DNA of 63,859 nt, the filler included, from Reclinomonas americana ATCC 50394 (taxonomy: Eukaryota), in the NCBI GenBank assembly GCA_048213135.1. It is 4 parts of 2 records of this genome, joined end to end, with 100 filler letters (N's around TTAATTAATTAA, not from the genome) between each part and the next. Parts side by side here need not be neighbours in the genome. Positions count along the whole stretch, not along the records: positions 29,052 to 51,790 come from PS015020.1; 3 more parts are not named here. One strand, 5' to 3'. The first letter of the stretch is position 1, and the number at the start of each line of letters is the position of its first letter. The position numbers and the translations under genes were made by a program. This document shows positions 6,877-56,585 of the stretch, one piece after another. The notes under the pieces were generated by a model. It was given only the letters and a program-made list of their open reading frames with translations. It searched no databases and was not told the origin of the DNA.

Positions 6877-11134
<4,258 letters not shown>

Positions 11135-33387: not shown

Positions 33388-36300
33388 TTACGGCTTTCCG
33401 TCCTCATCCTCGTCCTCCGCTGGATCGCCAGTCAACAGCTGCAGCGCTGAGCAGCTGGACGAGGCACCGCCATTGGCCGCCGAGTCGCCGCCGGCGAGCG
33501 AATACAGCCGCGCCTCCTCCTCGTGGCACAGCAAATGCGACGGCGCCGAGAAGTAGTAGAAGAGCGGGTAGTTGAGGAGATGCAAAAAGTCGCTCGCGTA
33601 AATGTCGGCGTAGCGATGCGTTTGCGTGGAGAAGAGCGTTGGTTTGCTGCCGGAGCGGAACACGCTGCCAAAGTACCTGATGGGGGGAAAGGAGGTGAGA
33701 TGAGGGAAAGAAGCAAAGGCACGGTGCGATATGAACGGCATGCGAGAGAAAGGATGTGGAGAGGCCACGCAACTTGTTGAAACATGTGTCGAATTCGGCC
33801 ATGGTGCTCTTGATCATGGTTCGCAAAAGTTCCGAGTTGGACTGGCGAATGGAAAGGTGAGGGAGTGCGGAGAGGAGATACGCGATGCATATTTTGAAGA
33901 GTGGACGCAACAGGAGCCTTTTCTGAAGTGATGTCGTACTTGTGGTACATCTTCGCACGCATGAACTCCAGGTTTTGCAGATGCGTGTACTTGTCGCGGT
34001 GGTAGGCCTGCGGAGGGGCGCCAAGAGAAGTGGATGAGATTGATGAAGCATGCAGGCAGAAATGAGAGAGAGAGAGAGAGCAAGAGTGAGGAGAGAAAGA
34101 GAAAGAAAGACAGAGAGAGAGAGAAGGAGAGCAGAGTCGCACTGTTATTTCGCTCATTGCTCGCTCTCACTGTCGTGTCGCTCGTTGCCCTCGCTCTCAC
34201 TGTCGTGTCGCTCGTTGCCCTCGCTCTCACTGTCGTGTCGCTCGTTGCCCTCGCTCTCACTGTCGTGTCGCTCGTTGCCCTCGCTCTCACTGTCGTGTCG
34301 CTCGTTGCTCTTGCTCTCACTGTCGTGTCGCTCGTTGCCCTCGCTCTCACTGTCGTGTCGCTCGTTGCCCTCGCTCTCACTGTCGTGTCGCTCGTTGCTC
34401 TTGCTCTCACTGTCGTGTCGCTCGTTGCCCTCGCTCTCACTGTCGTGTCGCTCGTTGCTTTCGCTCTCACTGTCGTGTCGCTCGTTGCTCTCGCTCTCAC
34501 TGTCGTGTCGCTCGTTGCTCTCGCTCTCACTGTCGTGTCGCTCGTTGCTCTCGCTCTCACTGTCGTGTCGCTCGTTGCTCTCGCTCTCACTGTCGTGTCG
34601 CTCGTTGCTCGCTCTCACTGCCGTGTCGCTCGTTGCTTTCGCTCTCACTGTCGCGTCGCTCGTTGCTCGCTCTCACTGTCGTGTCACTCGTTGCTCGCTC
34701 TCACTGCCGTGTCGCTCGTTGCTCGCTCTCACTGTCGTGTCGCTCGTTGCTCTCGCTCTCACTGTCGTGTCGCTCGTTGCTCTCGCTCTCACTGTCGTGT
34801 CGCTCGTTGCTCTCGCTCTCACTGTCGTGTCGCTCGTTGCTCTCGCTCTCACTGTCGTGTCGCTCGTTGCTCTCGCTCTCACTGCCGCGTCGCTCGTTGC
34901 CCTCGCTCTCACTGTCGTGTCGCTCGTTGCTCTCGCTCTCACTGCCGCGTCGCTCGTTGCCCTCGCTCTCACTGTCGTGTCGCTCGTTGCTCTCGCTCTC
35001 ACTGCCGCGTCGCTCGTTGCCCTCGCTCTCACTGTCGTGTCGCTCGTTACCCTCGCTCTCACTGTCGTGTCGCTCGTTACCCTCGCTCTCACTGTCGTGT
35101 CGCTCGTTGCCTTCGCTCTCACTGCCGCGTCGCTCGTTGCCTTTGCTCTCACTGTCGTGTCGCTCGTTGCCTTTGCTCTCACTGTCGTGTCGCTCGTTGC
35201 CTTTGCTCTCCCTTTCTCCATAGCCCTTTCCTCTGACCGTCCTTCCCGTCCTTCTCCCTCCCTCCCTTCCCCTTAAATCCCAACTCACCCACACACTATT
35301 CTCGTGATCCAACTCACGAATCACCAACAACGTGCGCCACAGACACATGCGCTTCTTCGACATGAGAATATCGGCAAACAAGTTGTCTCCGCAGTACAAC
35401 ACCTCCTCGCCCTGCAGATCAACCATCATAAGTCAACGACACACCGCCACATCTCTTCCCTCCTCTCTCTCTCTCACACACACACACATACACACAAAAA
35501 CACATATATCAGTCTTTCTCTCTGAGTCGCTCTGTCTCTCCCCTCTTCTCTCTCTCTCTCACACACACATACACACACATATATCAGTCTTTCTCTCTTA
35601 GTCGCTCTGTCTCTCCCCTCTTCTCTCTCTCTCTCTCACATACAAAAACACACATCAGTCTTTCCTTAGATGTCATTTGCTCCCTCTTACCCCACCCCTC
35701 TTGTCTCTCACACACACTCTCCGTCCCCTCCCCCCTCCTCTTCTTTCTCTTCTCTCCCCGCTCTTCCCCCTCCACCCTCTTCTCTCTCTCCCTCTCCCTC
35801 CCTCCCTCCCCCTCCAGCGCACCTTCAAATTCGTCAGCTGATGGAAGGTCTCGTAGTTGCCGCCGCTGTAGATCTTGCCGGGCTCGAAGCGGTCGCCGAG
35901 AGCCGTGAACTTGAGGTTACCGGTGGCGCGGTCGACCTCACGCAGCGTGGTGCCCTTTTCGAAAAACACCGGCTTCTTGGCGTTGACAATGGCAATGTCG
36001 AAATAGTCGCGCCACTGCGGGTACTCGGGCATGGCGCCGCGCAGCATGTAGTCCATGACGGCGTCGGTGTAGTAGTACTCGGAGTTGGTGAGCAGGAATG
36101 TCACGCGGCCGGCCTTGCGCATCTCGTGGAGCATCTTGGCCAGGCGCTCGTCGCGACGCACGTACCTGTGATGGATAGATGAGTAATCAATCGGAGGGGA
36201 GGGTGACTTGAGAGAGAAGAGCGGGGGCGCAACTTTGGCAAATCCGCAATGATGGTCTTCTTCAGCGTGCCATCGGCGTGGAAGCCGTCGACGGCGGAGC

Positions 36301-38119
36301 GCAGGTCGGCAAAGATGTTCTTGTAGGAGACGCCTCGGCTGTGGTGTGGGCGTGAGGTGGGTGGCGCGAACGAAAAATAAGGTGAGGATTCTCTTTCAGA
36401 GGCGCAACTAGATTTCTCCAGCGGCGTGCGGCTCGGAGGCGCTGCTGGCCGCCACCGACTCAAAGTAGACGACCATGTCGGCGAAGAGGCTGATCTCCGG
36501 TACCTCGAACAGCGTATTGAAGGTGTGATACCGCTTGCCGATTTCTTGCACGTGGATTTGGCCGGCGCGGTAGGCGGCGCGCACCTCTGGGTGTAGGGAA
36601 GGGGGAGGCACAGGCAAAGGCAAGGTAGGTACAGACACAAAAAGACAAGCGACGAACAAAATACAAACACAAGCGCAGGTATGCACGAACACGCAACGAA
36701 CACAGAGACACACGTGTAAACACACACGAACACACACAAGCACAGGCACGATCATAGACACAGGCACAGTAAACATGCAAACAAATAAATAACACACACA
36801 AAGAGCACATAAATGAACAGCACAATCACAACCACAGGCATACAAGCACAAACGCACAACAAGTACACAACACCAAACAAACAAGCAGACGACGCACAAC
36901 ACATGCATGGACGACCAAGTAAACACAAAACCCATAAGCACACGCACAACAACATGCAAATAATTACCCATACACAAACACACAACGAGCAAACATACAA
37001 GCACAACCACAACCACGCAAGCATACGCGTACAAAAAAAACAAACAAGCAAACAAACAAGCAAACGACATACAAACGACACACATGCGTGCACGAACAAG
37101 TAAACATATAGACACGCACAGACACACAATAACAAACAGACAATACGCACGCACGTGAGCACGCACAAACAAACAAGTAACCACACATGCACAGACACAC
37201 ATGAACAAACAAACAACAAGCACACACAAACGAAAAACAATGAGAAGGTGAGCAGCTGATGGATGTCTTGCACAACACACACACCTTCGCGATTCATCAC
37301 ACGCTTGCCGTGTACACAGCGAAGAATGTAGCCCCACTGGTCGACTTTGAGCATGTTGCCGGTGTTGAGGTCCAACAGGATGCCACTGCGCGGCAAGATA
37401 AGCAGGCTACGTTTCGAGTGAGAGCAATCGTGAGCACGCGCGCATACACACCGAATGGGGAACTCGGCGTCGTAGGTGAAGGAGAGGATCTCTGGCGGGT
37501 AGCCCATGCGTACGAGGCGATCCTTGGTCAGCTGGAAGGAGAGTTCTTCGTAGACGGGGGAGTGGTAGACGGCCAGGGTGCTGGAAAGGGGGAAAGGGGA
37601 AAAAGGGAAGTGAGGAGTGAGTGATGGCAAAGGAAAGCAAGTCATGTAGACGGAGAGAGATGATCAGTGAGAGGTTTCGACATAGGAAGGCACGAGTCAT
37701 CAACATGAGGGGAGACGATGCAGAAGAGTGCACACAAGTCCAACAATCAGAATGGGGATGGCAATGCATGCATGGAATAAAGTGAGGAGGAGAAGGTCGA
37801 AGCAAGGAAGGATACAAAGCAAGCAACCAGAGCGGGTAATCAATGCAGAGAAGTGCTGAAGCAACAAGCGAGAGAGAGAGGAGAGGAGACGCAGAGAGGT
37901 CCTCATGTCACAAACGACCAGAGAGAAAAGGCAAGTCGATGAAGGAATGCACACCAGCTCGATCCAACCTGAACACACCAGCCGAGACAACCCCCAATGC
38001 ATGTAGAGAGAGAGAGAGAGAGGGTGAAGAGGAGATGAGAGGAAAGGAGAGGAGACGCAGAGAAGTCCTCATGTCACAAACGACCAGAGAGACGGCACNN
38101 NNNNNNNNNNNNNNNNNNA

Positions 38120-38212
<93 letters not shown>

Positions 38213-38747: not shown

Positions 38748-41700
38748 ATGGCTGCCGCTGCACCGCCGTCGCCTTCGTTGCGCCGCTTCCTCTCTGTGTG
38801 CGAGAGTCTTTTCTCTCACGTGTTGATTGCAGTGGCGTCGTCGGTTCCTTGGAACCGACTTTGCGCGTTGTGAAAGCTTTGGCTGGACCTTGCACACACG
38901 CTCTACAAGCCATGCTGTCAAAAGTGTTACCGCCGTTCCTCGCTGATCATCACGCTGAAGTCGATCATTTGGCTGAGTGGGGCAAGAACACAGAAGCTCG
39001 AGACGCACGGTTTGTCATGTCTCGCAGACGCGCTCCTCCGCACTTGCACCCTGCACCTCTAACTTTGCGCGTTGATGCAGGACTAAGCTTGGCAATAGCG
39101 CACCAGCACGTTACGACAAGCAGCAGCAGACTGTGCAAGAGTGGTGCGCTGAATTTGGACCTGCACCGTATGCAAGTTCCGACTTCAGCAAGTTTGATGT
39201 CACTCTGTGTGCCTCTATCTTGGAATACGCCATTCACAATGACGGCGGAGTGCGTCATCGTATAATACCCGAATCCGTGGTGAATAGGAATGTTGTCTGT
39301 GTGTGTGCGCGCGCTATTTCTCCGCACTCAGTGTCGTGTCTCGCCAGAGCGATGTTGTCAGGCGTTTGCGTGAGATCCGGAATGCCATGAGTCACGCACA
39401 GTTGACAGTCGCCGACATGCATGAGCTGCTTGGCAGCGGGGCTGTTGGCGGCACCTCGGAGGGCAAGTTACACAAACACATACGCGGTCTGCAACTCGAT
39501 CCGGCAATTGTCGCTGAGTTGCTGCGACAGCTGGATGAGGCGCGCGATGGTTCGTGAGCGCACTTGGCATACTGTTGTGTTTCTGAGAGCGGAATTTCAT
39601 CCGCCTTGTTGCAGGTGTGCTCCATCCCGACATGGTTGCGGACCTTCTCGCGAAAGTGAGTTTGCTTTTGGCTTTCTCTCGTGCACTGTGCGTGCTAGCT
39701 GACATTCAACTGTAACATGGCCTGGCGGTTCAGTGGCTGGTAATGTTCGAACAGGTACGTTTCCTTCCTTTGGAAGTGCAACAGACAGTCAAAGTGTGCT
39801 CAGGCACGCATTTAATTTCTCACTTTGTCGCTCATGCACCCTCACTTTGTATATTTCCATTGAGTGATTGTGCTTACTGTTTCTTGGGCGTGTTGTGTAG
39901 ATTCGGGATGACGTTGATGTTGTCAAAGAAGATATCGCGAGAATCAAATGCTTTATCCAACAGGTGCAAAAACAGTGTTTCACGCTCCGGTATTTGCTGA
40001 TCACTCAACGCTGGCTCCTGCGCAGATTCTGAGCCAGATGGAGACGCGACGAACTGATGTGCCAGCCGCATCGAGCGCAGGTTTGGATCCAGCGCTGAAG
40101 TGTTGAGGTGCCAGAATTCGTATTTCTGATCACTTTTGCAGCCGCTGGCTCGCCTCTCTCCTCGTCCGGTATGCCAGAGTCGCCGATCTCTTCTCCCAGT
40201 TCCCCCCTCGGCATCGTCGCCAGCAACATTGGCCAAGTGAAGACGTTTCGCTTTCCGAGCCGCGAGGTTCTCGCCAAGGAGCACGCCAAATACGTACTTG
40301 AGCACATGCGTGGTGAGTGCTTGTGATATTCTGTCCGAGTCCTTAGCTACGTTGGTGCGCTGAATGCCTCTCTTCTCTCCGCTTACAGATAATAGTCCCA
40401 CGCCAATCGTTGTCGTCATCTCGGGCAACGGCGGTTGTGGCAAGTCGTTCCTGGCCCAGCTCATTGTCGCGGAAATGAAGGCATCATCAGTCGCAAAACC
40501 GCGCTGGAGGGGCTCAACAATGTCAGTAGACATGCGCGGTCACGTTGCCGATACGCAGAAGCACATGCAGGTGTGTGTGTACGCGCTTGTACCTGGTTCA
40601 TTACTGCCGTGGTTCACACTATTTTAGGCCCTGGATTCGCTGGTGACGTGCCTGCGCGTGTTTGCCACCAAGCAGGCGGATGCAGATCCCGCCAGTGCCA
40701 ACCGTTTGGAGCAAGAAATCGACTTTATGGTCAGGGCTGGCGCAGTTGACCCGCTTAGACGTCGTTTGCGGCAGCTGATGGTTGATTCGTGCGGCGTCCT
40801 TCTCCTTGACAACGTCGGCACCGAAGCGCAAGTGTGCTCCGTTGTGATGGACCCATCAGGTTAGTGGATTTGTTGTCAGGTGCTTTTTTTCTCAAGTCAT
40901 ACCGTAATACAGAGTACTTACCAGCCTCTCCTGCTGCAGAAGAGGAAGTGGTCGCGCCAGTGGTGATTTTAACGACGCGACATGCGTGGCTTTCCCGTGT
41001 CTTGACGAATAGGATGTCAAAGGCGGCCGGGATCATATCCCTGCCTCTCAGTGCCAAGGTGGAGGACAGCGACGTCAGCGATCTCGCCGAGTCTGTGCGC
41101 GAATACTTTCCAATGGAAGTGGTGCTGTTCGGTCGCATTGTCGAAGCGTTGAAGAGCACCGAGCGAAGTCCACTGCTACTGAACGCTTGTGTTGGGTGAG
41201 TGCGTGCTATGTCTGGGTGGTTGCATGTCATTCTGTCCTGCTTGAGTGCGCACTGTCGCCGTCCAGCGGTCGCAGCGCATACTATCTTTGTTGGCAAACT
41301 CAAATGGCGATTGGGAACATACAAGATTAACGCCTTGTGACATTACGCGTTCTCTGTCTGTATTCTGATCGCTCGTGTTCTCCTCTCACTCTCGCAAAAT
41401 TGACTCTCTTTGCTCGATGCCAGTTTCATATGCTGCCTCCCAGTCCGTTGCTTTTTCTTCTCGGCCTGTCTACCGCAACCCCTCACTGTCTCATTCTGAT
41501 ATTCCCCCACTCGCTCCCTCCTGTCTAGACTCTCTTCGCCTTCCTCCGCATCATACGCCGACAAACGATTGTCTTATTGCTCTCTTGTGTCTTGCCTACT
41601 AGAGCCCATTTCTTCCTACTATCTCTCGCATTCTGTCTCTCACAGTGACTTCTCCCTTGACAGCTGGCTGCTGAAATGTGAGGCCGCCCAGTTTATCGGC

Positions 41701-43578
41701 AGAGAATTGGAAAGCACGCTGGAGAGCATTCAGCATGCTGCACTGGCGCAACACTTGGCGTACAACGTCATGTCACAGACTTCACCGGCGCGGCAGCTCC
41801 TGGTTCTGATTACAGCGTGCAAGCAACTCGGTATCAGTGTCACGCCAGCTTTCGTACGGTTGGCACTCGGCGCTGTTGGCTCATTTCCAGATGTTGAGGT
41901 GGTTGGTGATGCCAATGTTACGATCAGTGCAGCTGCTGCTGAAGCGCCGTTTGGACAGTCGGTTGAGTGCGTGTTAGAGTGGAAGGACCAAGCAGAGGCG
42001 ATTGCTGATCGCTTACTGGACCTCAGCGAGCATGTGCGTCGTCTGTCACTGCACGACATGGCGCGTGAACGGCGCAGGAGGGCGCCGGATGTCGTTGGTG
42101 ACGAATTGCAGTTTGACGAGCTTACCGACGATGCGGAGGCAGGCGTCCGTGTGCGAATTGCGACGCTGATCCGTGCGGGTGATTACAGTGACACTGATCG
42201 CTTGTTGATTGCACTGTGTCGCACGAATCTGGCCACGACGGCAGATTCTGACAGAAGGGACGTAATGGCTCAAGTGCTCTGTCTGGATGACGATCGGGTA
42301 CAGAATTGCATGACAGAATACCGTCTGCATGACGACTACGCTGACTGGATATCGGCAGCTGGTGGTGGTATGGCCGTGTCATGTGCGAGGAGTCTTATCA
42401 TCTACCTCGTGTGTTGCACGTTGACGAGTATCGACATTGTGAATGACAGCGCCAACGTGCTGTTGGTGTCTCGCAACATGCAAGGCGTAGTTCGCACTCT
42501 CTGGCAGCAGCTGGCCGTCGATGATTCTTTGTGGGTCGGCCGTCAGTCAGTGCTGCTTCTGTTCGGTGCAGTGGAGTGGATCGCACGACAGTTTGCTGTG
42601 TCGCGACTTCCGGCACGTGATTTTGATAAGCGTTGTGGGAGGACATTAGCCGAACGAGTGACTGTGTGGGACTCGTCAGCCGTGCCGAAGGACAGTGCAC
42701 TGGGTCGCCGAATGCGGATTGCACAGCAACGTTGCTTGGCTCAACTCTGCCATTTGTTGAACGACGGAAACATGCAGATGGATGCAATACAGCAGACGAG
42801 TGATCATTATGCAATCGACGACGACCATGTGCAGTGTGCCTACGTACATCGAGAACTCCGTCAGCTTGATGCATTCCGCTGTGGCATGTGGTGCGAGCTG
42901 GCGAAGAGGGACAAGGATCGCCTGCTTGAATGCTGGTTGACACAACGTAAGACACTTGGCGAGCACCATCCGGATACGATTCGCACACTCTCGGCTCGTG
43001 CACAAGTCTGTGAAGAGATTGGCGACCAGGCAGGGGCAGAGCTGCTGTACAGGAGTTGCCGGCGGGCAAGGAAAAGGGTCCTCGGCGATGACCATGCCGA
43101 CACGATCATGTCTATGTATAAGAGGGCCTACTGTATCCAAGGTGCAACCCGTCGGAAGGAAAAGATACGTCTGTACAGGAAGTGCTTGGTTGCTAGAGAG
43201 CGCACCCTGGGTCAGCAGCATCCGGAGACGTTGCAATCTATGACCAACCTCGCCTGGGAGTTGATGAAGCTCGATGTGCCGCGGCTCCACGAGGCCAGAG
43301 GCCTGCTCAGCGAGGCCAGAGACCTGTTCTTTTTTTGTCTGAACGCACGCCTTGAGGTTCTCGGCGAGCTGCACGAGCAGACACTCAATGCTAGGGTCAA
43401 TTATGCGACTTGTCTGCAGAGGCTTGGTGGCGATGATCTTCCGGAAGCCGAAAATCAGCTGCTCAAATGCCTGAGCGGCTGTGGGATCCCGCCGACAACT
43501 GAGACTTTGCACGTCGCACAAGAGGCCAATGATGTCTATCTGAAGTTGTGGCTCCTAGACATGCCAGAGACCGAATGA
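38748..43578 (+). CDS. NLR-like STAND protein paralog 1: putative HEPN domain, helical linker, NB-ARC-type NTPase, C-terminal TPRs
   Basis: FSKFDVTLCASIL...VRRLREIRNAMSH (Rx4H); Walker A VVISGNGGCGKSFLA; Walker B VLLLDNV; sensor VVILTTR; RSPLLL; kinesin-light-chain-like TPRs LGEHHPDT, LGDDHADT, LGQQHPETLQSMTNLA; about 13 exons. Confidence 0.85.
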
Positions 43579-43721
43579 TCGTTCACTTTGTGAACCCTGT
43601 CATCGACTAATGTAGTTTACTCATTGTATTTGTGCCGAGGGGATCGTAAACATGTGTTGGCCAGCTGACGCATGTCCTGTATAATTGTTCCATTATCCGT
43701 CCGTCACACACCGCATCCGTC

Positions 43722-46106
43722 ATGGCTGCAGCTGCACCGTTGCGTCTCACTCACCTCTCTCTCTCTCTCTCTCTCACTCATTCACCCTTCTCTGTCTTCC
43801 GTGTTGTCAGTCTGCATGACAGCGACGCGGATAGCGACGAATGCATGTTGCGCATTGTGAAGGCCATTCTGCGCCCGTGCACACGTGCGCTGCAAGTGAA
43901 ACTCGAGCAAGTGTTGCCGTCATTCCGCGCAGAGCATATTGCAGAGGCTGATCATGTGGTCGAGTGGGGAAAGGCGGTGGATGCACGGAATGTGTGGTTC
44001 GTCGCAACTCACACTGATGTCGCCCTGTGCTCTCGAAGACAGTCGAGCTGTTGTTTGCTGCATGTGTTGTCTCTCTCTCTCTCTCACACACACACTCTCT
44101 CTTCCTCTCTTCTTGTCTCTTTTCCCGCTTCGTCTGCCTTCATTACCCGACTCGTCACCCTTTATCCGTCACACATACACACTCTTTTCTGTTCTCTCTC
44201 TCACACACACTTTCTCTTTCTTTCTTTCTTTTTTTCATTTCTTTCTCTCTCTCTCCCTCTCTCTCTCCCTTTGCGCTCACTCTTCGCGTTTCCAGCACCA
44301 AGCCTGGTGGCGGCGTGCCTGCGAACATGGATATGCAGCAGGAGACCGTGCGCAACTGGCTCGCAGCTGCCGCCGCATCGCCCGGCGGTCCAGCCGATTT
44401 CCGCATGTTTGATGCCACTCTGTGCATTTCTATTCTGCGCTTTGCCGCTCATCTTTCGGCGGCCCCCAAGAGCGTCACCTGCTATATGATTGCACGTGGC
44501 AGTGCTGAGGTGCGTCGAGGGAAGCTGATGTTCTTGAACTGCGCCGTCAGCGGCTGTCGCGTTTGGGCTTCCTTCTCCACGATTGATGTCGCTCCGTCTC
44601 GCTTTGGGGTGCTTTGAATTAGTGTCTCAAGATGTGCCTTGCCGAAGCCCTCTCTTTCTCTCTCCCTCTCTCTCTCTCTCTCCGTTCCCCTCTCTCCCAA
44701 TGCGCTTCGCACCCTGCCTCGCTCTTCCTGTTTTGCTTCTCCAATGTCATCATGCTCGAAGCGCGATTGCTTGTTCCTGATCGTGGCCTCTTCTCCTCCT
44801 GTCGTGCAGCTCCGCGCCATCGAAGAGCTGCGCGACTGGCGTAACAAGGTGCACGAGTTGCACCGACAAGGATCATTGCGTATTTCTTTTCACAAGTTGC
44901 TCGGCGACCGGGTCGCGGGGAGGGATGAAGGTGAGCTGCATAGGCTTGTGCGCGCTTTGCAACTTGGTCCGGCCGCCACTGCCGAGTTGGTCGATCTGCT
45001 GAATGACGCGCGCGAAGGTGAGAGACAATTCACTTGATTATCTTTGCTTTTTTTGTGAGTGCCTCTAGCGAGAGAGTGAGAGAGGCAGTGCGTTGACTGC
45101 GTGCAATCAGAGTGTGTGCGCGCGTGTGTGCGTGTGTGTTTGAGTGGGTGTCTAGAGTTCAAAGAGAGTTGTGTTTGTTTGTGCGTATGGCTACGTACCT
45201 CGGCGCTGTGACTTGCTGACTTTCGAGCCGTGTAGGCTCACTCCATCGAGACGCGACCGTCGAGCTGCTGAGAGAGGTATGCTTTCCCTGCAGCATCAAG
45301 CGAGGAACAGTCTCTCTTGTCACTCACGCTGTGCGATATGGCAGCTTCGTGACGACAGTAAGCATGACCACGAAATCGTTATCGATGAGGTGCGTACTCT
45401 TGGTCTTCTCCCTCCCCCACGTGATGATGTCACCTCACGCTGTGTTGTCTTTCCAGCTTCGCGACGGCTTCCACGACAGTCGAAGTGCACACGAGCACGT
45501 ACGTTCGCTGCTCTCCAGCCGACACCCATTCGAGCGAACTTATCGTATTCTTATCTCGCTGTCGCATGTAGATTATTCATTTATTGGTGCGCGTACTGGA
45601 GCGACTGGAGTTGTCTGGTCGGGTTTGAGGAGTCACACTTGTGGACCTTCGTAACGCTTGTATTTATTCTTTATCGTACAGGCTCGCCTTTGACGCCTGT
45701 GTATTCTCCACTGTCACCGGCCACTGCTTTTGGATCCCCATTTGGTATCGTGGCCAGCACCATCGAACAAGTGAAGACGTTCCGCTTTCCGAGCCGCGAG
45801 AGACTCGCCAAGGAACATGCCAGACTCATACTGGATCACATGCGTGGTGTGTAGTGTGTTTTTCTTCTCTCGTCTGTTTTCTGCCACATTGGGCTCGTTG
45901 TCTAATGCCGCTTCACTATCGGTACGTAGGCAACGAGTCTATGCCCATTGTTGTTGTCATCTCGGGAAATGGTGGCTGTGGCAAGTCGTTCCTTGCCCAT
46001 CTAATTGTCTCGGAAATGAGGACGTCGCCCACTCGACCGCGCTGGAAAGGCTCTGCCATGTCAGTGGACATGCGCGGCCACGTAGCCGATGCGCAGAAGC
46101 ACATGC

Positions 46107-46165
<59 letters not shown>

Positions 46166-48756
46166 TGTGTGTGTAAACGCGTGTGGAGTAAGTACCTGGT
46201 CAGCTTGATGTCTGATACTCGCGCACGACAAGGCCCTGGATTCGTTGGTGACTTGCCTGCGCGCATTCGCCTCCAAGCAAATGGTGAACGATGTCACAAG
46301 TGCCAACCGTCTGGAGCGTGAGATCGACTCGATGGTCAGGGATGGTAATATTGACTCCCTGAGACATCGGTTGCGGAAACTGATGGTGGATTCGTGCGGC
46401 GTATTGCTTCTTGACAATGTCGGCTCTGTTGAACAAGTTTGCTCCGTGACCATGGATCCGTTGGGTTAGTTGATCTGGTTCTTGGTACTGTTCCGTCCCC
46501 TCATGAAGAGTGCTTACGGAAACTCTCGTATTGCAGAAGAGGAAATGGTCGCACCAGTGGTGATTGTCACGACGCGACATGCGTGGCTTCCCGAAGACCT
46601 GACGTACCGCGTGTCAGTGGCGGCCGAGGTCATGTCAGTCTCCTTGGTTGCCGAGGTGGATGTCGGCGATGTCATCGTTCTTGCCGAATCGGCACGCAGA
46701 AAGCTGCCTATGACTCCGGAAGTATTCGGTCGTGTTGCCGAGGCGTTGAAGAGCACCGAGCGCAGTCCACTTCTACTTAACGCTTGCGTCGGGTACACTC
46801 GCGTCCTGTAGTTTCCTGTCTACTACCCCGCCATCTTACCTTTCCTGATTCCTCGCCAGTTGGCTGTTGAGATGCCCGCCGGCCCAGTTCATCGGCAGGG
46901 AGCTGGATGTCACGCTGGACAACATTCGCAGAGCTGCTGTGGCCGAACACCTCAAGTACAACATCATGTCACAGACGCCACCGGCACGGCAGCTCTTGGT
47001 GCTGATCACAGCGTGCAAGCAGCTCGGCATCAGTGTCACGCCAGCATTTGTGCGGCTCGCACTCGGCACTGTCGGTATCTTTCCAGACATTGAGTTGGCT
47101 GGTGGTGTCCATGGTGCGGTCAGCGCAGCTGCTGGTGCGGCATCTGCACAGCTAGTGGTGTGTGAGCGGCTATGTGATGACCATCACGCTGAGACGATTG
47201 CCGGTCGTCTGCTGGAGCTCAGCGAGCTCGTGCATCGAGTGTCACTGCATGAGATGGCGCTAGAGCGGCGTCAGAGAGCACCGGATGTCATTGGTGACGA
47301 GTTGCAGTTCGAGGAACTCACCGACGAGGCGGTGGCCGCAATGCGGCGGCGAATTGCGACGCTGAACTGTGCAGGCGATTACGGTGCAATCGATGACCTG
47401 CTGGTGGCACTGTGTCACACGAATCTGGCCACGATGGCCCGTTCAAACAGCAGAGATGTCATGGCACAAATGCTGCGTCTGGGAGACGAGCGGGTACAAA
47501 ATTGTGGTACCGATTATCGCCTGCATGACGAGTACGTCGAATGGATAACGGCGGCTGGTGGCGGTGTGGCCGTGTCCCGTGCCAAGCGCTTGATTGTCTC
47601 CCTCGTGTGTTGCACGCTGTTATGTATCGACATTGTGAACGACAGCAGCAGAGTGCTGCTGGTGTCGCGCGGCATGTCCGATGTGCTCAGCACTCTGTGG
47701 CAGCATCTGGCCGACGATGACGCGCTCTGGGTCGGTCAGCAGTCACTGTTGCTGGTGTGGGGTGCGGTGGAGTGGATGTCGCGACAGCTCGCAGTTTTGC
47801 GGCTACCTGCCCGTGGATTTGACAAGGATCATGGGAGGCGATTGGCTGAACGAGTGATGGGATGGGACGCCACGTCTGTGCCGGAGAACAGTGCGCTCGG
47901 GCGTCGCATGCGAATCGCGCAGCAGCAGTCCTTGGCGCAGCTGTGGTTCTTCTTGGACCAATTGGAGGACAGGAAAGGGGCGTGGCAGCGCGCGAGAGAA
48001 CTGTACGCCATCGTTGACGAACACAGTCGCTACCGGTGCGATGTGCTGCAGCGGATCGACGCGCTGCGGTGCGGCATGTGGCACGAATTTGCCAAGCTCG
48101 ACCACGACGGCATGCAGCGGTGTTGGGAAGAGCAATGCGCAGCTCTTGGCGAGTACCACCCTGAGACTGTTCGCACGCTGTTCTCCCATGCGCAGACCTA
48201 CGAAAAGGTCAACAAGTTTGTCGAAGCTGAGGCCCTGCATCGAAGATGTCTGGAGTACCGACAGCTGGTGCTCGGCGATGATCACGGCGATACTCTCACC
48301 TCCATCCTCAACGTGGCCTTTTGCATCCAGGCCCTTGAACGACTGGTGGAGAAGGTGGACATGTACCGTCGTTGCGTGGATGGACGGCGGAGCACTCTCG
48401 GTATCGAGCACCCGGAGACGTTGACGGCCACGAATAACCTGGCATGGAATCTCATGAAGCTGGCTACGGACGCGGCCCGCAACGAGGCGTGCAGTCTGCT
48501 GCTCGAGTGCCTCAATACGCGACGACGACTCCTGGGCGACCGGCACGAACGAACGCTCAACACCATGTTCATCTACGCCTCGACGCTGATGGATACGGGC
48601 GACGAGCGGCTACCAGAGTCGAAAACACTGCTGGAGGAGTGTCTGGAGGGCTGTTTGAAGGTGCACGGAGAAGATCACGAGAACACGACGGAGGCCAGAC
48701 GATGTTTGGAGGAGTGTCGGCAGAAGATGCAACAGAGGGAGAAGGGTGAGGAGTGA
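43722..48756 (+). CDS. NLR-like STAND protein paralog 2 (same architecture)
   Basis: Same MAAAAP start and shared intron positions; FRMFDATLCISIL...IEELRDWRNKVHELH; GNGGCGKS; LLLDNV; VVIVTTR; RSPLLL; TPRs LGEYHPET, LGDDHGDT, LGIEHPETLTATNNLA, HGEDHENT. Confidence 0.85.
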
Positions 48757-48958: not shown

Positions 48959-49516
48959 TNNNNNNNNNNNNNNNNNNNNNNNNNNNNNNNNNNNNNNNNN
49001 NNNNNNNNNNNNNNNNNNNNNNNNNNNNNNNNNNNNNNNNNNNNNNNNNNNNNNNNNNNNNNNNNNNNNNNNNNNNNNNNNNNNNNNNNNNNNNNNNNNN
49101 NNNNNNNNNNNNNNNNNNNNNNNNNNNNNNNNNNNNNNNNNNNCTCTCTCTCTCTGTATGCGTTGACTCACTTCCGACAATTGTTTGCTCCTCACTGCGC
49201 AGCCATCCACATGCGATGGTGAGTTGTTGTCATATGCTGCAGAGGCAAACACACAGCAGAGAGAGACATGTGCATCTCGTTTGAGCTTTTGCAGCGTGAG
49301 ATGCCAGCAGGATTCTCCCTTGCTGCAGATGCACATGTCCTCCTCCTTCACTCAACGCTCACTCACTTGCTTGCTCTCTCTCGCAGCCACGAGCAGTTCA
49401 AGAGCGCTCATGAGTGCCAGACGCGTCATGAGAGGTGTGTTGTTGTCAGTATGTCTGACGAGCAGTGTGCATGTGTGTATGTGTGTGAGTGTGTGTGTGT
49501 GTGTGTGTCTCTCTCT

Positions 49517-52311: not shown

Positions 52312-55300
52312 ACATGCCGGCCGACGGAGAAGTCCCCCTCTCGCGCGTGGTCAGCGATGCCTGTGAGAGCTTTCGTTGCGTGCACAGCACAGCAGGTGGC
52401 GTTTGCGCCATGCAATCTCGTCGGTGACTTTCATCGCTGTTCATCCCTCTCTTCGCGATCACAATCCTCTCCCTTTTCCTCTTTTCTCCTCTCTCTTTTC
52501 CTCTTTTCTCCTCTCCCTTCTCCTCTTTATGGCCTCCACTCCCTTCTCCTCTTTGCCTCCTCTCCCTTCTCCTCTTTGCCTCCACTCCCTTCTCCTCTTA
52601 GCCTCTTCCCCCTTCTCCCTTCGCCTCCTCTCCCCTTCTCCTCTTTGCCTCCTCTCCCTTTCCTCTTTATCGCCTTCTCTCCCTTCTCCCCTTCTCCTCC
52701 TCTCCCTTCTCCTCTTCGCCTCCTCTCCCCTCTCCTTCTTTTGCGACTTTCTCACTGGCCGGGCGCGCAGAGAGCTTTGTCAAAGTGCTGCGAAAAGAAT
52801 TCGCGATCCACTCGACGCAGTGGAGCGACGACGCCGAGACGCTACGAGTGTGGCGTCAATTGATGCACCTCCTGCAGCGTCCGCCTGGTGAGTTTTCATG
52901 CACTCCCAACATGCATGCACAACCCCATACTCACTCTTCTGCCATCGCAGCCTTTGTTGGTACGATGCCCGTCGCCATCATCACCGACTCGGTCGCCCTC
53001 CTCACCCTCCCTCCCTCCCTCCCCCCGCAGCCCCTCTGACGCCCGACATTAGACTGCACCAACTGAACGAGTACTGGTCCGTTCATCGTGACGCTCCACC
53101 GCTGTCTCCGATTGGCGACTGGTCAGTGCGCTCGCATGCTGCCATCGCCTCGCCTGTCTCCGATGAGGAGGAGGCCTTGTCGGCTCCTCTGCTGTGCGCT
53201 GCGTGGAACGCGGATGGTACGCAACTGTGGATCGGCTTCGAGAATGGCTGCCTCGGTGTCATGCCAGTCGGCTCCACCGACATTCATCTTGTGTATCGCT
53301 TTGGCGAGCTGCCACTGATCGGTCTGCGCTTCGTCACACGCGAGGTGCTGCTCGTGCAACAAGACTCGTCGCTGCGCCTGGCCGTGTTGGCGACAACGGT
53401 TGCCGACGACGGTGTCGCATACACTACCGTGATTGAGTGCCCGCCTCTGGTGATCCCCAGCAGTGTGTTCAGTCATGCGTTGGAGGTGCAGCCGCTGGAT
53501 CGCTCGCTCGTGCGCTTCGCCTGCGGTTTCGACCGCAGACGCCTGCTGCTTCTCGGTACGTCTCGCCCTCATCACCTTTGTTTATAATCCTCGCTCACAT
53601 GACTACAGAAATCGATCGTGGACTGCTGCAGCTCCACCCGTCCCCCGTGTGCATCACCGACGACCACATGACTGCCTTCTCCGTGGCTCCCGCCCTCGGC
53701 TTGGTGGCCGTGGGACTGGAAGTGGTTGGCAAGCAGTTCCAGCCGTTTTGCGTCGACGTGTACCGCTTGCATGTCACCATGCCGCCACCGATTCTTTGGT
53801 GCAAGCTGCACGCGCCGATGGCTGGGTTCAACAGGCCGCCGGGTGTGCTCGTACAACTCTGCTGGTCTCCCGACGCGTCGTCGCTGCTTGGCGTCTCCGA
53901 GAGCGGCCATCTGTCGTTGTGGCGGGAGATCGAGCGGCCGAGTCAGAAGATTGGCGAGGTGGTGCGGCTGGAGTGTGCGGTTGGCGCAGTGGCCTGGTCG
54001 CCGTGTGGATCGGTGATTGCAGTCTCTCACCGCGAGGGCGAGGCGGGACAATTGTCTCTTCTCAGCGCCCGGACGCTGGAAGTGATTCGCGTGTTTGACG
54101 TGTGTTCACCACCGCTGTCGTCTCGCTTGCTATCGTTCTCGGCGGATGGCCTCCGATTGGCCGCCGGCGACATTACCGGAGCCGTGCACTTACTGGAGTG
54201 TGCCTTGACTGACGAAGTGCCGGCTGTGATTGTCGCCGTGGCGATGGACAGTGCAAGCGGCAGCGGTGGCGACGCCGCCGCATCACACAAGGGCGGCAAG
54301 AAGGCTGGCAAGAGCAAGGCGGCGGCGGCCGCGGCCGCGGCGAATGACGATGGTAAGTTGAAGTCAGCTGATCTCGTTTTTCAGTCTTCCTTTTATTGAT
54401 GTGTCGAAGCAGATTTGGACTTGCTGCTGGCTGATTTGGTCGATCGTCCCGCGGCAAAGGCGACAACTGCAGGAGACAAGCGCAAGAAGAAGCCGGAGCC
54501 ACGAAAGCAGGAAGAGCATCAGCAGCCGAAAGACACGAAGAAGAAGCCGAAGGAGAAACAACCGTCTGGCGCGCGAGAGTCAACTGCCTCCGCCGCCGCT
54601 GCTGTTGCCACGCCACCTACTGTGGCTGCTGCGGCCGCTGCGGTGTCGCCTTCTTCTTCTATTGACGCGACGGCGGTCGACGTGGAGTCATTTGTGGCGG
54701 TGGAGGCGCGTCGCCCGCGGGGTCGGAAGCGTGTCGAGGAGGCCAGCCCGGTGGATACTCTGGCGACGGCGGCTTCCGAAAAGTCAGCGACACCACCACC
54801 ACCTCCTTCTGAGGAGGCTGTTCCTGCAGATTCACCCCTCGTGCCGGCACCTTCGGTGGAGAGGGTGGAGGAAGGTGTCGCTGAACCCGTCGCTTCCGAA
54901 CCATTGCCAGCATCGCCAAAGAAGAAGGCTGGTGGCAAGAAGGCGCGAGCGGCAACACCACCACCGCCACCTCCACCGCCGCATCCGGAAGAAGCGGTGT
55001 CTGTGGCCTCTGCGGAACCGGTGGCTTCCGTGCCCGTGCGGGCATTGCCGCCAAAGAAGGACGCTGGCGAGGAGAAGGCGCGATCAGCAACGCCACCCCC
55101 GCCACCGCCACCGCCACAGCCGCGGCCGGAAGAAGTGGCTGCATCTGTGGCCCCTGCGGAACCGGTGGCTTCTGAGCCGTTGCCTGCATCGCCCAAGAAG
55201 AAGGCTGGCGGGAAGAAGGCGCGGTCGGCAACACCGCCGCCGCCGCCGCAGCCGGAAGAAGTGGCTGCGCCTGCAGCTCCTCCAATCGTGCCGCTGCCTC

Positions 55301-56585
55301 CCGTCGAGTCGGTGCAGCCCGCGCCGCCGAAAAAGGCTGGCGGCAAGAAAGGGTGGGGATCTGCCGATGCTGCGAGTTGGAACCGGCCAGCAGAAACAGT
55401 GTCGGTGTCTCCGCAGCTCCCGCCGGCCGAGGCAGCCGGCTCGGGTGTACCGCCAGTGGCCGTTCCTGATCAGCCTGCCGCGGCTGCGCCAGGTGAATGC
55501 GCGTTCACCTCTTTGCTGTTCACTTGTTTTTGGTACTCACTTGGGGTCTCGTTGCAGCTGGTGGACGTAGCGGAGGCCGTGAGTGGAAACCACTGCATGT
55601 GTTGGAGCCGGCGAGTGGTTTTGTGCATGCGGTGGCCTTTGGTGGTCCTCGGCCGATGCTCGTGTCGGCGTGCGGTCAGTTCAAAGTGCACTTGTGGGAT
55701 CTTGCGCCACCGAATGCTGCCGGTGACTCGTCTGCCGCCGCCGCCGCCGCCGCTTCCGCTGCCCCACGATTGCTGCAGATTGTGGAGTGCCCGGATGTTC
55801 CGCTGTCGGTGTCGTGGCATCCGCAGGGCACCGCCGTGGCCGTTGGTCTGTTCAGCGGCGCGGTGATGGTGCAGCAGTTGGTGACGCGGATGTTTACGAC
55901 CGAGTTGAAACTGCTGCCGCGACAGCCTACCGTTGTGCACACGCGTGGCGTGTATGGTGTGTCGTACACTGGGGACGGCAGTTTGCTGGCCACCGGCTCT
56001 GCCGACGGCACGGTGTGCATCTATCGTGGCGCGAGTCTGTACAAGAACTATTACAGGAGCAGTGACGTGGAGGATCCGTCGCGCGGTGTCTTCCGTGTGC
56101 AGTTTAGCCCGTCGGCCATTTGCGTGGCGGCTGCGTGCATCGACGGGAGCGTGCGCGTGTTTGAGACAGAATCGTTGATGGAGTTGTACCAGCTGCGCGG
56201 ACATTCGCAGATGGTGTACGGAGTGTCGTGGAGTCCCGACAGCGAGCTGCTGGCTTCGTCCTCCTCTGACGGCACGGTGTTGCTGCACTCGAGTGCCACG
56301 CAAGATGTGGTGCGCCAACTCGCCGGTCGCGAGTCCAAGTGGCTGCGGGAGGTGGCGTGGTCGCCAGATGGACGACACATTGTGGCGGGCTCATTTGACG
56401 AGTGTGCACTGCTGTGGGACGCGGCAAGTGGCGACCTCGTGGACAGCGTCTCCGAAGCGCCACTTGGACGGCGTCGAGTCGACTGGGTGGCGGCCGTCAT
56501 GTCGGTGTCGTGGTCGGCAGACGGGCGCCAATTCGCCACCGGCTCGTGCGACGGCACTGTCAAGATTTACGCGCTGGCGCGGTGA
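52312..56585 (+). CDS. WD40-repeat protein: degenerate N-terminal propeller, Pro/Ala/Lys-rich linker, C-terminal WD40 propeller (5' end uncertain)
   Basis: LCAAWNADGTQLWIGFENG, LCWSPDASSLLGVSESGHLSLW, HTRGVYGVSYTGDGSLLATGSADGTVCIY, LRGHSQMVYGVSWSPDSELLASSSSDGTVLL, SVSWSADGRQFATGSCDGTVKIY. Confidence 0.85.

What the first reader, a model, noticed from the sequence alone, without database searches (positions are those of the whole stretch)
38748..48756. Tandem pair of NLR-like genes with a putative HEPN ribonuclease effector (HEPN - NB-ARC - TPR)
Seen after splicing: both genes have an N-terminal helical domain with FDxTLCxSIL followed by an R..H motif (LREIRNAMSH at 39378-39395; LRDWRNKVHELH at 44840-44863). 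A helical linker follows, then GNGGCGKS / LLLDNV / VVI(L/V)TTR / RSPLLL and 42-residue-type TPRs. Established: FDxT plus RN..H matches DZIP3/hRUL138-like HEPN domains; Rx4-6H is the HEPN RNase active site; effector-STAND-TPR is the layout of fungal NLRs and bacterial Avs defence proteins. Inference: a protist innate-immune or cell-death receptor in which TPR sensing oligomerises an RNase. The HEPN is split over several exons, so ORF scans miss it.
Basis: partly seen in the sequence, partly recalled or inferred. Interest (0 to 1): 0.8.

Follow-up and report, generated by a model that had tools for sequence, protein, structure and literature searches.

The report
Tandem NLR-like STAND–TPR gene pair
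Two neighbouring, intron-split genes of an unidentified eukaryote encode NLR-like switch proteins (ATPase plus TPR repeats) whose N-terminal domain may be an RNA-cutting HEPN module, a layout already known from corals, oysters and bacteria.

Summary
Two head-to-tail paralogues (38748-43578 and 43722-48756, + strand) give open reading frames of 1170 and 1184 aa once 10-11 and 9 GT-AG introns are removed. They are 56% identical, and 9 introns share position and phase. Every quoted motif sits at the stated coordinates.

The C-terminal TPR_10/TPR_12 repeats are significant in Pfam. The NTPase carries NB-ARC-type motifs: GNGGCGKS, LLLDNV, TTR, SPLLL and SLH[DE]. No profile match passes a family cut-off, because the domain is split over three exons.

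The HEPN call is plausible but not shown.
- **For:** a single, aligned RN-x3-5-H motif in each protein (3-5% of shuffles), a sub-threshold DUF4145 hit, and HEPN families as nearest language-model clusters for that exon.
- **Against:** PF18738 hit none of 6 exon pieces, profile-profile tests were not significant, and the bare Rx4-6H motif occurs in 82-88% of shuffles.

The spliced domain could not be given to Pfam or AlphaFold here, and no RNA run was listed.

HEPN-STAND-repeat proteins are already described in cnidarians, bivalves, Capsaspora and bacteria. I rate this a new member of a known kind, of moderate interest.

The parts
38748..43578 (+). Gene 1, 1170 aa. Exons: 38748-38797 (doubtful join), 38833-39009, 39081-39249, 39348-39549, 39615-39655, 39901-39963, 40026-40080, 40142-40312, 40389-40570, 40628-40859, 40940-41195, 41664-43578.
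   Evidence: All introns are GT-AG and the frame is open.
43722..48756 (+). Gene 2, 1184 aa. Exons: 43722-43996, 44296-44509, 44810-45017, 45236-45276, 45457-45544, 45682-45846, 45930-46108, 46233-46464, 46537-46792, 46860-48756.
   Evidence: All introns are GT-AG and the frame is open. The protein is 56% identical to gene 1.
38833..39549 (+). Gene 1 N-terminal domain (exons A, B, C; about 180 aa). Putative HEPN-like effector.
   Evidence: Conserved with gene 2 at 55%, 46% and 43% amino-acid identity, with dN/dS 0.145. HEPN evidence is weak only.
39193..39210 (+). FDVTLC motif, gene 1
   Evidence: conserved in gene 2
39378..39395 (+). RNAMSH (R-N-x3-H), the candidate HEPN catalytic motif of gene 1
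   Evidence: DUF4145 aligns here, E 0.039 and 0.12.
44296..45017 (+). Gene 2 exons B and C of the N-terminal domain (intron 44510-44809 lies between them)
44408..44425 (+). FDATLC motif, gene 2
44840..44863 (+). RNKVHELH (R-N-x5-H; also Rx3H), gene 2
40424..40447 (+). Walker A GNGGCGKS, gene 1
   Evidence: Weak P-loop hits to KAP_NTPase, NPHP3_N, nSTAND3, NB-ARC and NACHT. hhalign to an NB-ARC set gave probability 72% over 26 columns.
40799..40816 (+). Walker B-like LLLDNV, gene 1
   Evidence: It is placed on the NB-ARC Walker B by an in-box HMM, but the score is not significant.
40960..40980 (+). VVILTTR (sensor-1 / RNBS-B type), gene 1
41164..41181 (+). RSPLLL (GxP / GLPL-like), gene 1
42046..42060 (+). 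SLHDM, a possible MHD/LHD-type motif about 135 aa after the GxP motif, gene 1 (SLHEM at 47242-47256 in gene 2)
   Evidence: The reading as an MHD motif is by eye and from recalled knowledge.
42913..43560 (+). TPR_10/TPR_12 array, gene 1 (about 5 repeats)
   Evidence: Pfam. In the AlphaFold2 model most 10-residue blocks from about residue 440 to 630 of the last exon have mean pLDDT 76-95.
45965..45988 (+). Walker A GNGGCGKS, gene 2
48067..48753 (+). TPR_10/TPR_12 array, gene 2
   Evidence: Pfam TPR_12 E 9e-19 and TPR_10 E 4.3e-16. NCBIfam FxSxx_TPR E 9.6e-21, below its cut-off.

Best explanation
Each gene encodes a tripartite NLR-like STAND protein with five parts in order:
- an N-terminal domain of about 180 aa that is most likely a divergent HEPN-type ribonuclease module, resembling the DZIP3-like kind in motif order (FDxTL, then RN-x3-5-H);
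- a poorly conserved linker of about 90 aa;
- a P-loop NTPase with NB-ARC-type motifs;
- a spacer of about 400 aa;
- about five TPR_10/12 repeats.

Proposed mechanism, all inferred by analogy. The TPR array holds the protein in an off state and senses a ligand. Nucleotide exchange then lets the NTPase oligomerise. This brings the N-terminal domains together so that paired RN..H sites cleave RNA, leading to growth arrest or cell death.

Shown here: gene structure, paralogy, purifying selection, the motifs and the TPRs. Inferred: the HEPN fold, RNase activity, oligomerisation and an immune role.
For: - **Gene models:** open models with 20 of 20 GT-AG introns and 9 shared intron positions. Gene 2 has no ATG upstream of the conserved block that precedes the P-loop, so the NTPase part has no start of its own.
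- **Selection:** pN < pS in every segment. The N-terminal domain has dN/dS 0.145.
- **TPRs:** TPR_12 and TPR_10 pass Pfam's cut-offs, and the TPR part of the model is confident.
- **NTPase:** Walker A, hhhhDN, TTR, SPLLL and SLH[DE] occur in NB-ARC order. The P-loop aligns to an NB-ARC set at probability 72%.
- **HEPN motif:** RN-x3-5-H occurs once per protein, at the aligned place, in 3.4-4.7% of shuffles.
- **HEPN family hints:** DUF4145, a HEPN family, hits gene 1's motif exon at E 0.039 and 0.12. hhalign puts the motif onto the DUF4145 and Abi_C catalytic motifs.
- **Language-model clusters:** the nearest named Atlas clusters for the motif exon are Csm6-HEPN/Cas02710, Apea and DUF4145. Scores are 0.77-0.83, which the tool calls a lead only.
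- **Literature, passages read:** in the pearl oyster, 194 of 202 DZIP3-like HEPN proteins have Rx4-6H. Rx4H is the commonest form, and asparagine usually follows the R (PMC9646362). HEPN at the N-terminus of NACHT or NB-ARC proteins with TPR, LRR or WD40 repeats is common in cnidarians and bivalves and is listed for bacteria (PMC8260672, PMC10236652, PMC3710099).
Against: - No HEPN profile reaches significance. PF18738 hit 0 of 6 exon pieces at E<=10.
- DUF4145 is below its cut-off and hits only 1 of the 2 motif exons.
- hhalign of the spliced domain gave P 0.3 against 12 DUF4145 sequences and P 0.19 against 7 Abi_C sequences. A positive control, DUF4145 against Abi_C, reached only P 4e-4 and probability 34%.
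- The exon C profile found 0 relatives among 1.84 billion representative proteins and 0 PDB chains.
- The Atlas search with exon B returned viral RdRP fragments, which I read as noise.
- Bare Rx4-6H is at chance level.
- Gene 2's histidine spacing differs from gene 1's.
- NB-ARC (PF00931) is below its cut-off, and the in-box NB-ARC profile matched only the P-loop.
- The fold of the N-terminal domain could not be predicted, because spliced sequence cannot be handed to the structure tool.
- There is no transcript evidence.
Confidence: 0.5

Rival explanations
1. The proteins are STAND-TPR switches, but the N-terminal domain is not a HEPN RNase. It would be a lineage-specific adaptor or another kind of effector, for example a membrane-disrupting or protein-recruiting bundle. 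The RN..H motif would be structural or coincidental.
For: - No significant HEPN profile match in any test.
- No relatives of the motif exon in 1.84 billion representative proteins.
- RN-x3-5-H still arises in 3-5% of shuffles, and the histidine spacing is not conserved between the paralogues.
Against: - Motif-on-motif alignment with two HEPN families.
- HEPN families dominate the Atlas neighbours of exon C.
- R, N and H are invariant between paralogues that are only 43% identical in this exon.
- HEPN is the commonest N-terminal partner of such NTPases in cnidarians and bivalves.
Confidence: 0.3
2. The genes encode housekeeping or regulatory P-loop-TPR scaffolds, for example nephrocystin-3-like or kinesin-light-chain-like proteins, with no role in defence or cell death.
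For: - NPHP3_N scored E 8e-4 on the P-loop exon, and TPR_NPHP3 scored E 9.4e-6 on gene 2's TPRs. Both are below their cut-offs.
- The neighbouring genes are ordinary: kinase, UCH, 5'-nucleotidase, WD40.
Against: - There are no orthologue-like hits. The pre-TPR 415 aa found nothing among proteins of 728-2075 aa, and the whole last exon matched only TPRs at 16-34% coverage.
- Tandem duplication with fast-diverging ends is typical of NLR-like families rather than conserved scaffolds. Amino-acid identity is 43-55% in the N-terminal domain and 46% in the TPRs, against 72% in the NTPase.
Confidence: 0.12
3. The gene models are wrong or the genes are silent. The 5' exons might belong to separate transcripts, or one copy might be a decaying duplicate.
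For: - No RNA evidence could be obtained.
- The first join of gene 1 needs a 35-nt intron or an assembly frameshift.
- Only 143 nt separate gene 1's stop from gene 2's ATG.
Against: - Both copies keep more than 1100 codons open across all introns, with shared phases.
- pN < pS in every segment.
Confidence: 0.08

Closest known systems
DZIP3/hRUL138-like HEPN fused to NACHT or NB-ARC with TPR, LRR or WD40 repeats, in cnidarians and bivalves. Lineage-specific expansions are also listed for Capsaspora. Sources, passages read: PMC8260672, PMC10236652, PMC9646362, PMC3710099.
   Same: - N-terminal position of the domain on a STAND NTPase with C-terminal repeats.
- Tandem arrays of paralogues.
- An R-N-x3-H type motif; an FDxTL-type motif upstream of it is my own recollection of the family and comes from no call.
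   Different: - Pfam PF18738 does not hit any single exon here.
- The loop between the two motifs is short in gene 1.
- The NTPase has NB-ARC-type, not NACHT-type, motifs.
- The host has no close annotated relative.
Bacterial HEPN-STAND ATPase-TPR proteins (Npun_F6454 type), listed in Table 1 of PMC3710099 (passage read)
   Same: HEPN, then STAND NTPase, then TPR, in one polypeptide. Proposed role as a suicidal or defensive RNase.
   Different: - These are prokaryotic and intron-less, and are assigned to the Swt1-like HEPN group.
- No sequence relation was found here. PADLOC gave no defence-system match beyond weak P-loop hits.
NB-ARC-TPR proteins of fungi and actinobacteria. Examples are P0006, P0008 and P0046, and the NCBIfam FxSxx_TPR family.
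   Same: TPR_10/12 arrays, 30-36% identical over the TPR part. FxSxx_TPR scored E 7.6e-16 and 9.6e-21. NB-ARC-type motif order.
   Different: - Their NB-ARC and DUF7779 domains pass Pfam cut-offs; ours do not.
- Their N-terminal domains differ (TIR, patatin, none).
- The spacer between NTPase and TPR is unrelated.
Avs (antiviral STAND) proteins of bacteria. The name is recalled, not taken from a paper read here.
   Same: The same logic: an effector, a STAND NTPase and a TPR-like sensor.
   Different: No PADLOC Avs model matched any of the 14 exon pieces at E<=1.

Membership tests
HEPN superfamily | Conserved Rx4-6H motif, usually with N, D or H after the R | tested here: met
   RNAMSH in gene 1 and RNKVHELH in gene 2 are aligned, with R, N and H invariant. 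The bare motif is at chance level. The RN form occurs in 3.4-4.7% of shuffles.
HEPN superfamily | Significant profile match to any HEPN family | tested here: inconclusive
   - DUF4145 scored 14.5 and 12.9 bits against a cut-off of 23.1, on gene 1's exon only.
- hhalign gave P 0.3 and 0.19 for the spliced domain, and P 0.18 and 0.12 for exon C alone.
- The query profile has only 2 sequences. The HEPN-versus-HEPN control reached only probability 34%.
HEPN superfamily | All-alpha helical-bundle fold with the motif at the start of a core helix | not testable with these tools
   The domain spans three exons, and spliced sequence cannot be passed to structure prediction.
HEPN_DZIP3 (Pfam PF18738) | Match to PF18738 at or above 27 bits | tested here: not met
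   There were 0 hits among 6 trimmed exon pieces at E<=10 and 0 among 18 ORF pieces at E<=1. The model was never run on the joined domain, so a summed borderline score is not excluded.
NB-ARC / AP-ATPase clade of STAND NTPases | Motif series: Walker A, Walker B, TTR (sensor 1), GxP, MHD-like | tested here: met
   GNGGCGKS, LLLDNV, VVI[LV]TTR, RSPLLL and SLH[DE]M occur in this order in both genes. Assigning these motifs to NB-ARC is from recalled knowledge.
NB-ARC / AP-ATPase clade of STAND NTPases | Match to PF00931 at or above 23.5 bits | tested here: not met
   The score was 17.1 and 13.4 bits, on the P-loop exon only. KAP_NTPase, NPHP3_N, nSTAND3 and NACHT scored alike. An in-box profile of 8 NB-ARC domains matched only the P-loop. 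The domain is split over 3 exons.
TPR_10 / TPR_12 repeats | Pfam match above the cut-off | tested here: met
   TPR_12 scored 56.1 and 67.9 bits (cut-off 30.1). TPR_10 scored 32.7 and 58.8 bits (cut-off 27.5).
Bacterial Avs and other PADLOC defence STANDs | Match to a PADLOC model | tested here: not met
   Only weak P-loop hits, the best being PDC-S01 at E 7.9e-4.
Nephrocystin-3 | NPHP3_N and TPR_NPHP3 above their cut-offs | tested here: not met
   NPHP3_N scored 20.0 and 16.7 bits against 24.8. TPR_NPHP3 scored 25.6 bits against 100.

The most novel reading that the evidence does not exclude
The N-terminal module is a previously unsampled effector family, either a very divergent HEPN RNase or something new. 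It is carried on an NB-ARC-like/TPR chassis in a poorly sampled eukaryotic lineage. That would make it an RNase-STAND-TPR death or immunity switch assembled or retained outside animals and bacteria. Its motif exon has no detectable relative among 1.84 billion representative proteins.
Probability: 0.3. Interest if true: 0.6.

Novelty: new member of a known kind. Interest (0 to 1): 0.4.

Why it matters
If the N-terminal domain is an active HEPN RNase, these genes would extend the RNase-armed NLR-like architecture to a eukaryote with no close annotated relative. That architecture is so far described for cnidarians, bivalves, Capsaspora and bacteria. Such a case bears on whether effector-STAND-repeat receptors were inherited or assembled repeatedly. 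The pair also shows that exon-wise scans miss domains split by introns. The exon coordinates given here let anyone run the decisive searches on the spliced proteins.

Tried and rejected
- **Whole genome:** none is held for the window, so paralogues could not be counted genome-wide.
- **RNA evidence:** no RNA holder was listed. The single DNA run X1 gave one 410-nt contig identical to 40820-41203, intron included, with a loose 26-letter adaptor-like end. It says nothing about splicing.
- **Relatives of the last exon:** the search returned only TPR matches at 16-34% query coverage.
- **Relatives of the pre-TPR 415 aa:** nothing among proteins of 728-2075 aa.
- **Exon C profile:** 0 hits against 1.84 billion representative proteins.
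- **PDB sequence searches:** exon C and exon B profiles gave 0 hits. The spacer profile gave 4 chance hits at E 0.79-1.5.
- **Atlas with exon B:** viral RdRP fragment clusters, scores 0.83-0.94 with 153 or fewer shared features. I read this as a short-fragment artefact.
- **NCBIfam:** nothing except FxSxx_TPR, below its cut-off.
- **Genome and metagenome scans:**
  - The TPR part found no relative in genome contigs.
  - Alignment A2 found none in metagenome contigs.
  - Alignment A4 found two loci. Both are chance pattern matches: a LINE-like ORF in L062 and an AT-rich bacterial ORF in L063.
- **PF18738 in prokaryote genomes:** no match over the cut-off in 5 and then 401 genomes searched, nor in the 14 controls. 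No reference set of DZIP3-type HEPN sequences could therefore be fetched for an in-box test.
- **phmmer:** the spliced N-terminal 620 aa against the 50 proteins gave no hits.
- **Global hhalign** of the NTPase against NB-ARC plus the winged-helix region gave a meaningless alignment.
- **AlphaFold2 of the last exon:** mean pLDDT 50.7. Residues 1-414 were nearly all below 50 apart from a few single residues, so no fold search was run on the spacer.
- **Taxon probe:** a 5'-nucleotidase exon gave a best hit of 61% identity to an unnamed protein. The three closest named hits were 49% (Andalucia godoyi), 46% (Stigmatella sp.) and 45% (a Polyangiaceae metagenome genome), so the lineage stays unidentified.
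- **RNA genes:** Rfam and tRNA scans of the window found none.
- **Complex prediction** was not used, because a pass would not tell HEPN from another fold.

Full report
**What is there.** The stretch 38748-48756 holds two head-to-tail genes on the + strand. ORF listing under the standard code shows the conserved peptides scattered over three frames. DNA comparison of the two halves finds 74-76% identity only from the P-loop region onward.

I read the exon borders from the sequence and checked them by script. Gene 1 has 12 exons and encodes 1170 aa. Gene 2 has 10 exons and encodes 1184 aa. All 20 introns begin GT and end AG.

Nine of gene 1's ten firm introns share position and phase with gene 2's nine. 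Intron 39964-40025 is present in gene 1 only. Joining gene 1's ATG (38748) to the next exon needs a 35-nt intron or an assembly frameshift, so that join is doubtful. Gene 2's ATG (43722) is in frame with its first conserved block.

The proteins are 56% identical over 1137 aligned residues. tblastn finds no third copy in the window. Only 143 nt separate gene 1's stop from gene 2's ATG.

**Are they coding?** Non-synonymous differences are fewer than synonymous ones in every segment. dN/dS is 0.145 for the N-terminal domain, 0.43 for the linker, 0.27 for the NTPase and 0.29 for the spacer. Synonymous sites are saturated in exon C and in the TPR part.

Exon GC is 0.56/0.585, with GC3 0.61/0.66, against 0.50 in introns. 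Gene 2 has no methionine upstream of the conserved block that precedes the P-loop, except the ATG at 43722 and two Met codons in exon B. This argues that the 5' exons and the NTPase exons make one protein.

No transcript evidence could be had. No RNA run was listed. The one DNA run holds a single genomic contig that includes an intron.

**C-terminal and central parts.** Both last exons pass Pfam's cut-offs for TPR_12 and TPR_10. NCBIfam's FxSxx_TPR model matches below its cut-off.

An AlphaFold2 model of gene 1's last exon is confident only in the TPR part. There most 10-residue blocks have mean pLDDT 76-95, while residues 1-414 are nearly all below 50 apart from a few single residues.

The NTPase is split over three exons. 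It carries GNGGCGKS, LLLDNV, VVI[LV]TTR and RSPLLL, followed about 135 residues later by SLH[DE]M. That order matches what I recall of NB-ARC (AP-ATPase) domains.

Profile evidence is weak. The P-loop exon gives sub-threshold hits to KAP_NTPase, NPHP3_N, nSTAND3, NB-ARC and NACHT alike. I built a profile in the script box from 8 NB-ARC domains taken from proteins, using the coordinates. It matched only the P-loop, at hhalign probability 72% over 26 columns. Walker B and TTR were placed correctly but without significance.

The roughly 400-aa spacer between the NTPase and the TPRs has no detectable relative.

**The N-terminal domain.** Three exons (A, B, C) encode about 180 aa that are 55%, 46% and 43% identical between the paralogues. 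Exon B holds FD(V/A)TLC. Exon C holds LR(E/D)xRN followed by a histidine.

The motif occurs 9 and 19 times in the two proteins, and in 82-88% of shuffles of the domain. The RN-x3-5-H form is found once per protein, at the aligned place, and in 3.4-4.7% of shuffles.

Evidence for HEPN:
- Pfam DUF4145, a HEPN family, hits gene 1's exon C exactly at the motif. The E-values are 0.039 and 0.12, below the cut-off, and gene 2 gives no hit.
- The nearest named ESM-Atlas clusters for exon C are Csm6-HEPN/Cas02710, Apea and DUF4145, with scores 0.77-0.83. The tool calls this range a lead only.
- hhalign lays our motif on the catalytic motifs of DUF4145 and Abi_C sets. I fetched these from cyanobacterial-phylum genomes (12 and 7 sequences used).

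Evidence against, or missing:
- Those hhalign results are not significant. P is 0.3 and 0.19 for the spliced domain, and 0.18 and 0.12 for exon C alone.
- The control between the two accepted HEPN families reached only P 4e-4 and probability 34%. A two-sequence query therefore has little power.
- PF18738 (HEPN_DZIP3) hit 0 of 6 exon pieces at E<=10.
- The exon C profile found nothing in 1.84 billion representative proteins and nothing in PDB sequences.
- Exon B's Atlas neighbours were viral RdRP fragments, which I take as noise.

From memory, and from no call, DZIP3-type HEPN domains of invertebrates show the same order of short motifs: an FD[IV][ST]L-type motif, then RN-x3-H. This raises my own odds but is not a test.

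I also could not fetch a reference set of PF18738 proteins. None passed the cut-off in the 5 and then 401 prokaryote genomes searched.

**Surroundings and host.** The window carries ordinary eukaryotic genes:
- a protein kinase exon (8672-9175, - strand);
- an EF-hand;
- a UCH protease (14595-15244);
- a BNR/EGF protein (25197-27356);
- a 5'-nucleotidase (34704-36395, - strand);
- WD40 proteins (53437-56582).

It has no tRNA or Rfam match.

A 5'-nucleotidase exon finds at best 61% identity to an unnamed protein. The three closest named hits are 49%, 46% and 45%. The host therefore has no close annotated relative in the collection. 'Protist' is plausible but was not established.

**Comparison with what is known.** I read passages of four papers.
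- Anantharaman et al. 2013 list DZIP3/hRUL138 HEPN domains fused to TPR, NACHT, CARD, DEATH and LRR, with lineage-specific expansions in Nematostella, oyster and Capsaspora. They also list bacterial HEPN-STAND-TPR proteins (PMC3710099).
- In cnidarians, the DZIP3-like HEPN is the commonest partner of NACHT in 9 of the 15 species surveyed (PMC8260672).
- In corals, NB-ARC proteins mostly carry TPRs, and many N-terminal DZIP3-like HEPN domains are seen (PMC10236652).
- In the pearl oyster, 194 of 202 such domains keep Rx4-6H, mostly Rx4H with N after the R. More than 50 sit at the N-terminus of NACHT proteins, in tandem arrays (PMC9646362).

I found no paper on such proteins in protists with the terms (11 papers listed, none on this). 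That is one search and does not show absence from print.

**Verdict.** A tandem pair of NLR-like STAND-TPR genes is well supported. The HEPN RNase effector is the best single reading, at about even odds for the whole mechanism, but it is unproven. DZIP3-family membership failed the only test that could be run. I rate the finding a new member of a known kind, of moderate interest.

Noticed in passing
43579-43721: Only 143 nt lie between gene 1's stop codon and gene 2's ATG. That is very short for a eukaryotic terminator plus promoter. The tandem repeat unit is 4974 nt from ATG to ATG.
   Followed up: partly
38748-38849: Both genes start with MAAAAP. In gene 1 this ATG is out of frame with the next conserved exon, unless a 35-nt GT-AG intron (38798-38832) or an assembly frameshift is assumed.
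   Followed up: partly
40389-42900 and 45930-48090: The central NTPase and spacer are much more alike between the paralogues than the two ends. Amino-acid identity is 72% and 64% with dS 0.7-0.9 in the centre. It is 43-55% in the N-terminal domain and 46% in the TPRs, where dS is saturated. Gene conversion in the middle, or faster change of the effector and sensor ends, could explain this.
   Followed up: no
46109-46232; 44060-44277; 38120-38180: Long (GT)n/(CA)n and (CT)n microsatellites sit inside introns and next to the genes. N-runs at 38099-38118 and 48960-49143 flank the pair.
   Followed up: no
969-3454 (+): Two further ORF pieces give weak TPR hits: TPR_11 at E 9e-4 and TPR_2 at E 1.6e-4. 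They may belong to another TPR gene unrelated to the pair, since tblastn with gene 1 did not hit them.
   Followed up: no
25197-27356 (+): A 720-aa open frame with BNR/Asp-box repeats and teneurin-like EGF domains.
   Followed up: no
window 40820-41203 (run X1): The only public contig found is identical to this stretch. It carries a 26-letter loose end that looks like a sequencing adaptor, so homopolymer or adaptor artefacts in the underlying data are possible.
   Followed up: no
L062 2953-3027: A metagenome contig shares an 11-residue identical peptide with gene 1's exon B, inside a LINE-like ORF. It is a by-product of the pattern search, not a relative.
   Followed up: yes
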